Origin: Escherichia coli | Lineage (GTDB): Bacteria > Pseudomonadota > Gammaproteobacteria > Enterobacterales > Enterobacteriaceae | DNA length: 64,000 nucleotides | Assembly: GCF_041248615.1 (NCBI RefSeq) | Contig: NZ_CP158426.1 | Strand: one strand, 5' to 3' | Part shown: positions 27,801-30,800 of the stretch, piece after piece | Position numbering within the stretch: the stretch's first letter is position 1 | How the letters are laid out: each line of letters opens with the position of its first letter | Program-made: the position numbers

Positions 27801-30800
27801 TGAACACCACGTCGGTGAAAAGTGGACAGCAATGGGATGCGCCAAATGGCTGGGCTCCCCTGCAATGGGTGGCGACAGAAGGGTTGCAAAACTACGGGCA
27901 GAACGAGGTGGCGATGGACATTAGCTGGCACTTCCTGACCAATGTTCAGCACACTTATGACCGGGAGAAGAAGCTGGTCGAGAAATATGATGTCAGTACC
28001 ACCGGAACAGGTGGCGGCGGTGGCGAATACCCGTTGCAGGATGGCTTTGGCTGGACCAATGGCGTGACGCTGAAAATGCTGGATTTGATCTGCCCGAAAG
28101 AGCAACCGTGTGACAATGTTCCGGCGACGCGTCCACTCAGTGAATCAACAACACAGCCGGTAAAACAAAATGAGGCGGAACCTACGCCTTAACTTTACTG
28201 TATATCGAGCAATGCCATTACGTGCATAAAATTGGCATTGCTCTTTCTTCACCACGAAATACCAAATACCACTCTTTCTACGGTCTATGCCTTTATTTTC
28301 TTTTATTAGAGAAGATTTTAATTTTATTTTATCAACTTGTTAATCATTACACCTCTATTTATATTTTCCCCCACTCCCCATTCTCCCTGACAATTTTCTT
28401 GTGGAACAAAGTGTTATTTAAGAAACAAGCAAATCATTCTGTCTCTTTAGACAAATTTTGACATCAAACATGATCTTTTTCGCTATATGTGTAAGTATAT
28501 AGCGGTTTTAATTATCAGGATATTACTTATGTCACTAACCAGACGGAGGTTTACACAGATTCTTGCGTCGACATTGTTCCTGCATCATCTGCCGTCCTTT
28601 GCACTATCAGTCAAATTCTGGGCCTCACTGACGCTTCCCGAAGCCCAAAACATTACACGCATCGTCAGCGCAGGCGCGCCCGCCGATTTACTATTGCTGG
28701 CTGTCGCGCCAGAAAAAATGGTCGGTTTTTCCTCTTTTGATTTTGCCCGTCAGGCATTAATTCCATTGCCAAAGCACATTCGCCAGTTCCCCAGGCTGGG
28801 ACGACTCGCCGGGCGCGCCAGCACACTCTCGCTGGAAGGGCTTATGGCGTTACATCCCGATTTGGTCGTTGATTGCGGCAATACGGATGAAACCTGGATC
28901 TCCCAGGCACGGCAGGTTAGCGAACAGACACAAATACCCTGGTTATTGCTTAACGGGAAACTGGAACAATCAGCAGAACAGTTAACAACGCTTGGCAAAA
29001 CGTTAGGCGAAGAGCACCGCGCCGCAGAACAAGCCAATCTCGCCAGCCGCTTCGTTGGTGAAGCTCAGGCATTCGCCACCTCACCCGCCGCTAACCTCAG
29101 CTTTTATGCTGCGCGCGGTCCTCGAGGGCTGGAAACGGGCTTACAGGGTTCGTTGCATACCGAGGCGGCGGAATTATTAGGTTTGCACAACGTCGCGCAA
29201 ATAGCCGATCGCCACGGTCTGACACAGGTTTCCATGGAAAATCTCCTGCGCTGGCAGCCGGATATTATTCTGGTTCAGGAGGCCGTTACTGCAGATTTTA
29301 TTCGTCGTGATCCTCTCTGGCAGGGCGTGAAAGCCGTTGCGGAACAACGCATCTTATTTTTAAGTGGCTTGCCCTTTGGCTGGCTGGATGCCCCACCGGG
29401 AATCAACCGTCTTCTGGGATTACGCAGACTTCACGCCTGGCTGGATCCCGCCATCAATCGCCAGTTTAAAAGTGACATACAGCATTACGCCCAACTGTTC
29501 TGGCATTGCCCATTAAGTGACGCCGACTATCAAAAATTGGTGGCGAGCTAATGAGAACCGTAAACGGATGTATTTTGCTGCTGGCAGCTATCAGTATCAC
29601 TTTTGCCGCCGTAAGTGGGGCTTATCATCTCGATATACAGCAACTGCTGGCGCTCATTCTTCGTCAAGAAAATGTTCCTGTGCAGGAACAAATTGTCTTC
29701 TGGCAAATCCGCGTACCGCGTATTCTTGCTGCGCTGTTTCTGGGCGCGGCGCTGGCAGGGGCCGGAACCACCTATCAGGGAATGTTCCGTAATCCCTTAG
29801 TGTCACCGGATATTTTAGGCGTCTCCGCCGGTGCCGGACTTGGTGCCTGCGCGGCAATCCTGTGGGGATTATCCATTGTTTACATCCAGCTGTACGCATT
29901 TTGCGGCGGGCTGATGGTGGTCGCGGGCGTCTGGTTGATTACGCGTCGGGTGACCCGCCACGATCCGATCTTAACCCTGGTGCTGGTAGGCATTGCGTTA
30001 GGAACGTTGTGCGGAGCGGGGATATCGCTAATAAAAACGCTGGCCGATCCTTACACCCAGTTACCGTCAATTACCTTCTGGTTGCTGGGGGGGCTGTCCA
30101 CCGTGACCTTACGCGATCTCTGCTATGCTGCACCGATCATTCTCATAGGCTCCTTGCCCCTGTTTTTTCTCCGCTGGCGCATGAATTTACTCACGCTTTC
30201 CGACGACGAAGCCCGTTCGCTGGGACTGAACGTGACACGTCTGCGCTTTGGATTAATTGTCTGCGCCACACTAATCACCGCCAGCACGGTAGCAATAGCG
30301 GGCATAATTGGTTGGGTCGGCCTGGTCGTTCCGCACATTGCCCGCTTGTTGACCGGTCATAACCATCAGCAGCTGTTGCCCATGGCAATGTGTACTGGCG
30401 CGATTCTGCTCCTGCTTACCGATACGCTGGCACGCAGCATTGGAACAACAGAAATCCCACTTGGCATTCTGACCGCTTTTGTTGGTGCACCGTTTTTCCT
30501 GTTTTTGTTGTTACGCGGAGGTCGCCAGTGACTTTGCTTGCCGTCCGTCATGCGTCTCTGGGTTACTCCCGCCATCCGGTGCTACGCGACGTGTCCTTCA
30601 CCCTGTCGCAAGGAACAATTTGTTGTCTGTTAGGAGCCAATGGTTGCGGCAAAACCACACTCATGCGCTCCATTCTTGGCGTTATACCGTTATTAAAAGG
30701 CGAGATCTTACTGGATAGCCTCCCTGTGCAGACACTCAGCCATCGCCAGCGCGCGCAGGCTATTGCCTGGGTGCCGCAGGCGCACGACGGCATTTTTGCT

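What the first reader, a model, noticed from the sequence alone, without database searches (positions are those of the whole stretch)
28529..28620. Twin-arginine-like signal on the binding protein of the uptake operon
The predicted N-terminus MSLTRRRFTQILASTLFLHHLPSFA has an S/T-R-R-x-F-type motif followed by a hydrophobic stretch, typical of Tat rather than Sec signals. Tat export would suggest the binding protein folds, or binds a ligand or cofactor, in the cytoplasm. The upstream in-frame ATG at 28487 would add 14 residues and is less likely because it lacks a ribosome-binding site.
Basis: seen in the sequence. Interest (0 to 1): 0.4.

Follow-up and report, generated by a model that had tools for sequence, protein, structure and literature searches.

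The report
Twin-arginine signal on molybdenum-regulated binding protein
The binding protein of this E. coli uptake operon carries a conserved twin-arginine (Tat-type) export signal, which is not unusual for its protein family, but the operon appears to be switched by the molybdate sensor ModE rather than by iron.

Summary
The ORF starting at 28529 begins MSLTRRRFTQILASTLFLHHLPSFA, and RefSeq uses the same start. The signal matches the TatP default motif. Its hydrophobic core is weak, like 25 E. coli Tat signals and unlike 15 Sec signals. The twin arginines are the only conserved positions of the signal across 47 relatives down to 32% identity, and they are encoded by different Arg codons. The upstream ATG at 28487 is excluded: five of six orthologous loci have an in-frame stop there.

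Export by Tat is therefore likely but unproven. The signal is short (25 aa), has no Lys or Arg near the cleavage site, and was not listed in a published TatP scan of a strain with the identical signal. Nothing suggests cofactor loading. FhuD, from the same family, is a listed Tat substrate that is not described as carrying a cofactor.

The ATG at 28487 lies inside an inverted repeat (28481-28504) that fits the ModE operator consensus with one mismatch. Every orthologous locus examined has such a box, and none of the intergenic region resembles a Fur box. The permease and ATPase are closest to Haemophilus MolBC, a molybdate/tungstate importer. The island looks like a molybdate-repressed, TonB-dependent uptake system mislabelled "iron". 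It is absent from K-12.

The parts
28529..28603 (+). Signal peptide coding region, 25 codons: MSLTRRRFTQILASTLFLHHLPSFA. Predicted signal peptidase I cut after Ala25 (S-F-A | L).
   Evidence: Small residues at -3/-1 and Pro at -5. The AF2 model has a helix at residues 5-20, then a block of lower confidence (mean pLDDT 58 for residues 21-30), and the folded domain from about residue 30.
28538..28558 (+). Twin-arginine motif T4-R5-R6-R7-F8-T9-Q10 (consensus S/T-R-R-x-F-L-K). The RR codons are 28541-28546.
   Evidence: TatP regex match. R6 invariant and R5 at least 90% conserved in 47 homologues. Position table. Arg codons vary between genera.
28529..29551 (+). Substrate-binding protein, class III (Peripla_BP_2), 340 aa precursor.
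   Evidence: Pfam PF01497, 61.9 bits against a cutoff of 27.5. AF2 mean pLDDT 90.1. Foldseek top hits are 4pag and 2etv, with MolA 3psa ranked 4th. PGAP uses the same coordinates.
28481..28504 (.). ModE-type operator CGCTATATG-TGTAAG-TATATAGCG, ending 24 nt before the start codon. It covers the rejected ATG at 28487.
   Evidence: One mismatch to CGNTATATA-N6-TATATANCG. It is the only site in the 64 kb window at 3 or fewer mismatches, against 0.22 expected. Consensus taken from PMC545781. The K-12 modA upstream box scores 2 mismatches and ends 19 nt before modA. A box is present upstream of the operon in all orthologous loci examined.
28487..28489 (+). Alternative in-frame ATG; rejected as a start codon.
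   Evidence: No Shine-Dalgarno sequence. It lies inside the operator palindrome. Five of six orthologous loci have in-frame stops there.
28517..28520 (+). Shine-Dalgarno AGGA, 8 nt before the ATG at 28529.
   Evidence: AGGA is also present at the same distance in Citrobacter and Shewanella.
28458..28463 (+). TTGACA, a possible -35 hexamer. Seventeen nt downstream the operator begins, so the box would overlap the -10 region and transcription start. This is inferred.
   Evidence: Read from the sequence. A -35-like hexamer followed by 17 nt and then the box is also seen in Citrobacter (TTGATT) and Serratia (TTGACT). The promoter scan did not report it.
29551..30531 (+). FecCD-family permease (type II ABC importer).
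   Evidence: Pfam PF01032, 299.8 bits. The best solved homologue is HI1471 MolB at 5.9e-65, ahead of FhuB, HmuU and BtuC.
30528..31286 (+). ABC ATPase (GTG start).
   Evidence: The best solved single-domain importer ATPase is HI1470 MolC at 1.2e-35.
31296..32108 (+). Class I SAM-dependent methyltransferase; specific role unknown.
   Evidence: No solved homologue at E<=1e-5. Present in every complete orthologous operon examined.
32105..32959 (+). ModD, a quinolinate-phosphoribosyltransferase-like protein of unknown role.
   Evidence: TIGR01334, 503.6 bits against a cutoff of 178.85. The best PDB hits are QPRTases.
32985..34955 (+). TonB-dependent outer-membrane receptor with a Sec-type signal MRLKKRYLCTALSLAFTQQAVA.
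   Evidence: Plug and barrel Pfam domains. PGAP coordinates. N-terminus. No close solved homologue at E<=1e-8.

Best explanation
The first 25 residues are a genuine, selectively maintained twin-arginine signal peptide. After synthesis the 340-aa precursor folds in the cytoplasm. Its T-R-R-R-F-T-Q motif and weakly hydrophobic core are recognised by TatBC, the folded protein crosses the membrane through the Tat translocase, and signal peptidase I cuts after S-F-A25. The mature class III binding protein then receives substrate brought into the periplasm by the operon's TonB-dependent receptor. It delivers that substrate to a MolBC-like type II ABC importer. Tat is the main or a major route. No cofactor loading is implied. 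The operon is most likely repressed by molybdate-bound ModE, so the system probably scavenges a molybdenum or tungsten species rather than iron. Shown here: the sequence features, their conservation, the start codon, the operator match, and the homologies. Inferred: Tat dependence, the cleavage site, ModE repression and the substrate.
For: N-terminus and start. TatP regex match. Hydrophobicity: 10/12-residue windows of 1.48/1.23, against 25 published E. coli Tat signals (mean 1.81/1.68) and 15 Sec signals (mean 2.60/2.45, minimum 1.92/1.99). Family-wide values are 1.89/1.77. R6 invariant and R5 at least 90% conserved among 47 homologues to 32% identity, with no other signal column reaching 90%. 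Canonical RRxFLK/Q persists in many representatives at 35-46% identity, whereas Sec or lipoprotein signals predominate among the more distant relatives. Arg codons are not conserved. 26 of 40 relatives have Lys/Arg in the c-region window. FhuD, in the same Pfam family, is listed as a Tat substrate in E. coli and Salmonella. System context: ModE box, no Fur box, MolB and MolC as nearest solved homologues, MolA as the nearest functionally characterised structural neighbour (rank 4), and modD adjacent to molABC in Haemophilus.
Against: No dedicated Tat predictor could be run. The Pfam TAT_signal and NCBIfam scans gave no hit, but they also missed the TorA and FhuD control signals, so they are uninformative. 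The signal is 25 aa, shorter than all 25 reference Tat signals (minimum 26). Its best 8-residue core scores 2.38, which overlaps the low Sec range. The E. coli c-region has His-His rather than Lys/Arg, and +4 is Thr rather than the family's Leu. The operon's own Sec-type receptor signal is equally weakly hydrophobic (10-residue window 1.81), so hydrophobicity alone does not discriminate. A TatP-based list of 25 Tat substrates for strain PCN033 omits this protein although that strain encodes the identical signal. That list contains only named proteins, most of them well-known E. coli Tat substrates, so it may have been filtered. Some native Tat signals can use Sec to a degree.
Confidence: 0.65

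Rival explanations
1. Dual-route signal. The peptide is recognised by Tat, but it is short and lacks a strong Sec-avoidance charge, so a substantial fraction of the protein also crosses by Sec and Tat is not required for function.
For: Length is 25 aa and the 8-residue core scores 2.38, overlapping Sec signals. There is no Lys/Arg in the c-region of the E. coli version, whereas 26 of 40 relatives have one. The literature notes that some native Tat signals show flexibility toward Sec.
Against: The strict conservation of RR and of the following Phe/Leu-Leu/Ile shows that Tat recognition matters to fitness. The same source states that Sec export of native Tat substrates is inefficient.
Confidence: 0.2
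2. Ordinary Sec signal. The arginines only provide the positive n-region charge, and the resemblance to the Tat motif is incidental.
For: The TatP regex alone hits about 7% of Gram-negative Sec proteins. The signal length is typical of Sec. The protein is absent from a published TatP-derived list. More distant family members use Sec or lipoprotein signals.
Against: A Sec n-region tolerates Lys/Arg interchange and variable positions. Here Arg-Arg is fixed in 46 of 47 sequences, with [ST] before it and [FL][LI] after it, while the rest of the signal drifts. The 10/12-residue hydrophobicity is below every Sec control.
Confidence: 0.1
3. Mis-set start. Translation begins at the ATG at 28487, giving MCKYIAVLIIRILLMSLTRRR..., a strongly hydrophobic N-terminus that would act as a Sec/SRP signal or membrane anchor.
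For: The ATG is in frame and open. The extended N-terminus would be very hydrophobic (10-residue window 3.09).
Against: There is no Shine-Dalgarno sequence. The ATG sits inside the conserved operator palindrome. Five of six orthologous loci have in-frame stops 6-60 nt upstream and no alternative start, and in Citrobacter it reads ATG-TAA. PGAP uses 28529.
Confidence: 0.02

Closest known systems
E. coli FhuD (ferrichrome-binding protein) and its twin-arginine signal
   Same: Same Pfam family (Peripla_BP_2) and same role as the periplasmic partner of a FecCD-type ABC importer fed by a TonB-dependent receptor. Its signal also carries S-R-R-R-L-L and is about as long (30 aa). It is listed among Tat substrates of E. 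coli and Salmonella, and the sources read do not describe a cofactor for it.
   Different: Only distant sequence similarity: the NCBIfam ferrichrome/ferrioxamine B periplasmic transporter model (PRK14048) scores E=0.032. FhuD belongs to an iron-hydroxamate uptake system, whereas this operon has a ModE-type box and no Fur box. The partner genes differ (methyltransferase, ModD).
Haemophilus influenzae MolBC-A (HI1470-HI1472), a type II ABC importer for molybdate/tungstate
   Same: The permease and ATPase here are closest to HI1471 and HI1470 among solved structures (5.9e-65 and 1.2e-35). MolA is the nearest functionally characterised structural neighbour of the binding protein (rank 4 in Foldseek). 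In Haemophilus, molABC lies next to modD and molB is repressed by molybdate.
   Different: The binding proteins are only remotely related (E=1.1e-7 over about 75 residues). The Haemophilus gene cluster as listed (modA, molABC, modD-salX-cysU) names no TonB-dependent receptor or methyltransferase. MolA is a low-affinity binder. The ligand here is unknown.
E. coli modABC operator-promoter (ModE regulon)
   Same: A palindrome fitting CGnTATATA-N6-TATATAnCG placed just upstream of the ribosome-binding site of the first gene: 19 nt before modA and 24 nt before this gene.
   Different: ModABC is a type I importer, and molybdate is thought to reach it through porins. This operon encodes a type II importer plus an energised outer-membrane receptor. 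ModE binding here is predicted, not shown.
PDB 4pag, solute-binding protein of Sulfurospirillum deleyianum
   Same: Closest solved relative by sequence (2e-26) and by fold (TM 0.78-0.82, 27% identity).
   Different: The PDB entry description gives no ligand or function, so it does not identify the substrate.

Membership tests
Twin-arginine (Tat) signal peptides | S/T-R-R-x-F-L-K consensus at the boundary of the n- and h-regions | tested here: met
   T-R-R-R-F-T-Q matches 5 of 7 consensus positions and the TatP default regex.
Twin-arginine (Tat) signal peptides | h-region less hydrophobic than in Sec signals | tested here: met
   10/12-residue windows are 1.48/1.23, within or below the Tat set and below all 15 Sec controls. 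Caveat: the operon's Sec-type receptor signal is also low.
Twin-arginine (Tat) signal peptides | Basic residue in the c-region (Sec avoidance) | tested here: inconclusive
   E. coli has His-His only. 26 of 40 relatives have Lys/Arg in the window from RR+10 to RR+23.
Twin-arginine (Tat) signal peptides | Extended length relative to Sec signals | tested here: not met
   25 aa. The 25 reference Tat signals range upward from 26 aa with a mean of 33. Length is a typical feature rather than a strict requirement: EfeO is 26 aa and SufI is 27 aa.
Twin-arginine (Tat) signal peptides | Conservation of the arginine pair among orthologues | tested here: met
   R6 invariant and R5 at least 90% conserved in 47 sequences to 32% identity, with varied Arg codons.
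Twin-arginine (Tat) signal peptides | Match to curated profile models (Pfam PF10518 TAT_signal; any NCBIfam Tat-signal model) | tested here: inconclusive
   No hit at E<=10. The TorA and FhuD control signals also gave no Pfam hit, and SufI reached only 15.8 bits against a cutoff of 22.7.
Twin-arginine (Tat) signal peptides | Export abolished in tat mutants or by RR-to-KK substitution | not testable with these tools
   Needs experiment.
Class III / Peripla_BP_2 substrate-binding proteins | Pfam PF01497 above the gathering score, and a two-lobe fold joined by a long helix | tested here: met
   61.9 bits against 27.5. AF2 pLDDT 90.1 with a long helix at residues 162-183. All top Foldseek hits are class III binding proteins.
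ModE regulon (molybdate-responsive operators) | Palindrome fitting atCGnTATATA-N6-TATATAnCGat in the promoter region | tested here: met
   One mismatch in the 16 specified core bases, unique in the window. The K-12 modA upstream box scores 2 mismatches. Boxes with 0-3 mismatches occur at the operon front in Citrobacter, Serratia, Shewanella, Providencia and three further lineages, with a second box before a separately transcribed receptor gene.
ModE regulon (molybdate-responsive operators) | Molybdate-dependent ModE binding and repression | not testable with these tools
   Needs EMSA/footprinting and reporter assays.
MolBC-A type II molybdate/tungstate importer | Permease and ATPase orthologous to HI1471/HI1470 | tested here: inconclusive
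   They are the best solved homologues (222.8 and 126.2 bits). Orthology was not established by phylogeny.
MolBC-A type II molybdate/tungstate importer | Binding protein homologous to MolA and binding molybdate/tungstate | tested here: inconclusive
   Only remote sequence similarity (1.1e-7). The fold is shared. Ligand binding was not tested.
Fur-regulated iron/siderophore ABC uptake systems (the current database name) | Fur box in the promoter region | tested here: not met
   The best match in 28193-28528 is 13 of 19, equal to the 90th percentile of shuffled sequence.

The most novel reading that the evidence does not exclude
The six-gene island between treA and ymgE is a ModE-repressed acquisition pathway for molybdenum or tungsten. 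It would use an energised TonB-dependent outer-membrane receptor, a Tat-exported class III binding protein and a MolBC-like type II importer, with a conserved cytoplasmic methyltransferase (and often ModD) processing the imported species. That would mean that many enterobacteria, including about 40% of complete E. coli genomes but not K-12, actively take up a molybdenum or tungsten species across the outer membrane instead of relying on porin diffusion. It would also mean the genes are mis-annotated as iron transporters.
Probability: 0.35. Interest if true: 0.7.

Novelty: new member of a known kind. Interest (0 to 1): 0.4.

Why it matters
The Tat signal by itself adds one accessory-genome protein to the list of likely E. 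coli Tat substrates. It matters mainly for studies that use tat mutants or Tat inhibitors in pathogenic strains. The context matters more. These genes are named "iron ABC transporter" in thousands of genomes, yet the regulatory signal points to molybdate control. A review read here states that molybdate is thought to cross the outer membrane through porins. A ModE-controlled TonB-dependent receptor with its own importer would give a directly testable candidate for active molybdenum or tungsten scavenging in gut and extra-intestinal E. coli, Citrobacter, Serratia, Providencia and Shewanella.

Tried and rejected
1. Profile scans for Tat signals (Pfam PF10518 and NCBIfam) at E<=10 gave no hit. 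The TorA and FhuD control signals were also missed by the Pfam scan, so the result is uninformative.

2. An Rfam scan of the whole window found no riboswitch or leader RNA near the operon.

3. The 28480-28505 hairpin was flagged as terminator-like. I rejected that reading. The sequence itself, not just the pairing, is conserved between genera and fits a protein operator, and the T-run is weak and not conserved.

4. I searched for a Fur box because the genes are annotated as iron transporters. The best match was at chance level.

5. The upstream ATG at 28487 was rejected as a start.

6. Ten literature searches used locus tags, ModD, ModE, TonB and molybdate terms. They found no paper describing this island. 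Studholme & Pau 2003, Tullman-Ercek 2007 and Tirado-Lee 2011 were not available to read, so prior description cannot be excluded.

7. Hydrophobicity as a stand-alone discriminator was downgraded after the receptor's Sec-type signal scored equally low.

8. The methyltransferase and the receptor have no close solved homologues, so the substrate could not be narrowed this way.

9. A relative with a Sec-type signal (P0133) was on a 2-kb contig, too short to compare operon context. P0138 was not on record.
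Full report
LOCATION AND OBSERVATION. The window is E. coli chromosome: dhaR-dhaKLM-treA, then six genes, then ymgE-ycgR-emtA-ldcA. It is 100% identical to NZ_LT599825 over the queried 28200-31300 stretch. RefSeq annotates the same start. AGGA lies 8 nt upstream of 28529, and the in-frame ATG at 28487 has no such site. The protein is a Peripla_BP_2 (class III) substrate-binding protein. It is followed by a FecCD permease, an ABC ATPase, a class I SAM methyltransferase, ModD (TIGR01334, 503.6 bits) and a TonB-dependent receptor. The island is present in 2148 of 5426 complete E. coli genomes. K-12 lacks it and has the unrelated ycgY at that site.

IS THE SIGNAL TAT-LIKE? 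No SignalP or TatP is available here, so I used four indirect tests.

1. Motif. The TatP default motif RR.[FGAVML][LITMVF] (PMC1182353) matches RRRFT. With Thr before the Arg pair, the motif T-R-R-R-F-T-Q fits 5 of 7 consensus positions.

2. Hydrophobicity. The best 10- and 12-residue Kyte-Doolittle windows are 1.48 and 1.23. Twenty-five E. coli Tat signals taken from Table 2 of PMC7549933 average 1.81 and 1.68. Fifteen textbook Sec signals, entered from my own knowledge (TreA checked against the window translation), average 2.60 and 2.45, with minima of 1.92 and 1.99. This test is supportive only. The operon's own receptor has a Sec-type signal (MRLKKRYLCTALSLAFTQQAVA) that is equally weakly hydrophobic.

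3. Cleavage site. S-F-A at -3 to -1, with Pro at -5, is a normal signal peptidase I site.

4. Conservation, which is the strongest test. Among the 120 closest database hits, orthologues from Citrobacter, Salmonella, Klebsiella, Serratia, Yersinia, Providencia and Shewanella (down to 50% identity) begin M-x-x-[ST]-R-R-x-[FL]-..., while the rest of the signal diverges. In a 47-sequence alignment reaching 32% identity, R6 is invariant, R5 is at least 90% conserved, and no other signal column reaches 90% conservation. The derived family motif is [ST]-R-R-x-[FL]-[LI]-Q. It resembles the SufI signal SRRQFIQ in having Gln at the fifth position after the first Arg, where the consensus has Lys. Many representatives at 35-46% identity still show canonical RRxFLK. 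Among more distant ones, Sec or lipoprotein signals predominate. The Arg codons differ between genera, so the constraint acts on the protein and not on the DNA.

POINTS AGAINST A STRICT TAT ASSIGNMENT. The signal is 25 aa, one residue shorter than the shortest of the 25 reference signals. Its 8-residue core (2.38) overlaps the low Sec range. The E. coli lineage has Thr at +4 where the family has Leu. It also has His-His in the c-region, where 26 of 40 relatives have Lys or Arg. Pfam and NCBIfam Tat-signal scans give no hit, but they also miss TorA and FhuD, so this says nothing. Strain PCN033 carries the island with the identical signal. Yet the paper that scanned that genome with TatP lists 25 substrates without it. 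All 25 are named proteins, most of them well-known Tat substrates, so the list may have been filtered, and I count this as mild negative evidence. Some native Tat signals are reported to use Sec to a limited degree.

START CODON. In five of six orthologous loci an in-frame stop lies 6-60 nt upstream of the M-x-x-[ST]-R-R start, and there is no alternative start. In Citrobacter the ATG homologous to 28487 is followed immediately by TAA.

COFACTOR IDEA. Nothing supports loading of a ligand or cofactor in the cytoplasm. Peripla_BP_2 is the only Pfam family detected. The AF2 model is an ordinary class III binding protein (pLDDT 90.1). I saw no chaperone-like gene in the operon. SufI, AmiA and AmiC are Tat substrates not predicted to need a cofactor, and FhuD, from the same family, is also a listed Tat substrate.

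CONTEXT FOUND ON THE WAY. The terminator-like hairpin at 28480-28505, which contains the 28487 ATG, reads CGCTATATG-TGTAAG-TATATAGCG. The E. coli ModE consensus quoted in PMC545781 is ATCGNTATATA-N6-TATATANCGAT. The core pattern matches here with one mismatch. It is the only site in the window at 3 or fewer mismatches, against 0.22 expected. The box upstream of K-12 modA, which I know from prior knowledge to be the characterised ModE operator, scores two mismatches and ends 19 nt before modA. The box here ends 24 nt before the start codon. The same box stands in front of the operon in Citrobacter (1 mismatch), Serratia (1), Shewanella (0), Providencia (3) and three further lineages, L009 (1), L010 (0) and L015 (2). 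A second box precedes the receptor gene wherever that gene has its own upstream gap. Because the sequence, not just the pairing, is conserved, this is a protein operator and not an RNA hairpin. The intergenic region has no Fur box (best 13 of 19, at chance level) and no Rfam element.

Among solved structures the permease is closest to HI1471 MolB (5.9e-65, ahead of FhuB, HmuU and BtuC). The ATPase is closest, among importers, to HI1470 MolC. MolA is the nearest functionally characterised structural neighbour of the binding protein, although its sequence similarity is remote. MolBC-A is a type II molybdate/tungstate importer whose genes lie beside modD in Haemophilus and are repressed by molybdate. 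In one metagenomic locus the system lies next to molybdopterin-oxidoreductase genes with formate-dehydrogenase-type domains. The methyltransferase accompanies the transporter in every complete locus examined, whereas ModD is sometimes absent.

MECHANISM. Shown: the sequence features and their conservation. Inferred: everything about function. Under molybdate limitation ModE leaves the operator and the operon is transcribed. The binding-protein precursor folds in the cytoplasm, is targeted by its twin-arginine signal to TatBC and exported, and is cut after Ala25. In the periplasm it takes up the species imported by the TonB-dependent receptor and hands it to the MolBC-like importer. The methyltransferase and ModD act in the cytoplasm in an unknown way. 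My confidence that Tat is the main or a major export route is 0.65. I give a dual route 0.2, Sec only 0.1 and a wrong start 0.02.

NOVELTY. A Tat signal on a class III binding protein has a precedent in FhuD, so the finding itself is a new member of a known kind. The ModE-controlled combination of TonB-dependent receptor and MolBC-like importer was not described in any paper I could search or open. Three key papers were unavailable, so prior description cannot be excluded. [quoted passage not shown]

Noticed in passing
window 28481-28504; also L002 7951-7974, L004 7957-7980, L007 7956-7979, L008 6959-6982, L009 6925-6948, L010 4878-4901, L015 6957-6980: A conserved palindrome fitting the ModE (molybdate regulator) operator consensus stands directly upstream of the operon in every lineage examined. 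It fits the consensus better than the K-12 modA upstream box does. The operon is annotated as an iron transporter but has no Fur box.
   Followed up: yes
L004 12491-12514, L008 11570-11593, L007 11723-11746, L015 10633-10656: Where the TonB-dependent receptor gene is separated from the preceding gene by an intergenic gap, a second ModE-like box (0-3 mismatches) sits just upstream of it. This suggests separate but co-regulated transcription.
   Followed up: partly
window 28193-34955, compared with K-12 L013 3984-4679: The six-gene island occupies the treA-ymgE interval. K-12 has the unrelated ycgY gene there, and only the flanks align. The island is in 2148 of 5426 complete E. coli genomes and at the same chromosomal site in Citrobacter.
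   Followed up: partly
L011 16473-17453 (E. coli PCN033): In ExPEC strain PCN033 the island's FecCD permease is annotated as a pseudogene with an internal stop, so the system may be decaying in some lineages. Several truncated or partial binding-protein entries from Shigella and E. coli were also among the database hits.
   Followed up: no
window 28604-28606: The first residue after the predicted cleavage site is Leu in this strain, but Gln in most of the other E. coli sequences among the database hits (P0001-P0003, PCN033).
   Followed up: no
L010 457-4463: In a metagenomic relative the receptor-binding protein-ModD-permease cluster lies next to molybdopterin-oxidoreductase genes with formate-dehydrogenase-type Pfam domains. 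This fits a molybdenum or tungsten link.
   Followed up: partly
window 31296-32108 and orthologous loci: A class I SAM methyltransferase with no close solved homologue accompanies the transporter in every complete locus, whereas ModD is missing in Shewanella, L009 and L015. Its role in an uptake operon is unexplained.
   Followed up: partly
window 17440-17458: GAAAATGATAACCAGTATC matches the Fur box consensus at 16 of 19 positions, the best match in the window. It is unrelated to the operon studied.
   Followed up: no
window 3876-3941, 4412-4477, 51148-51226: Rfam gathering-score hits: two rdlD antitoxin RNAs and the C0299 sRNA, all on the minus strand.
   Followed up: no
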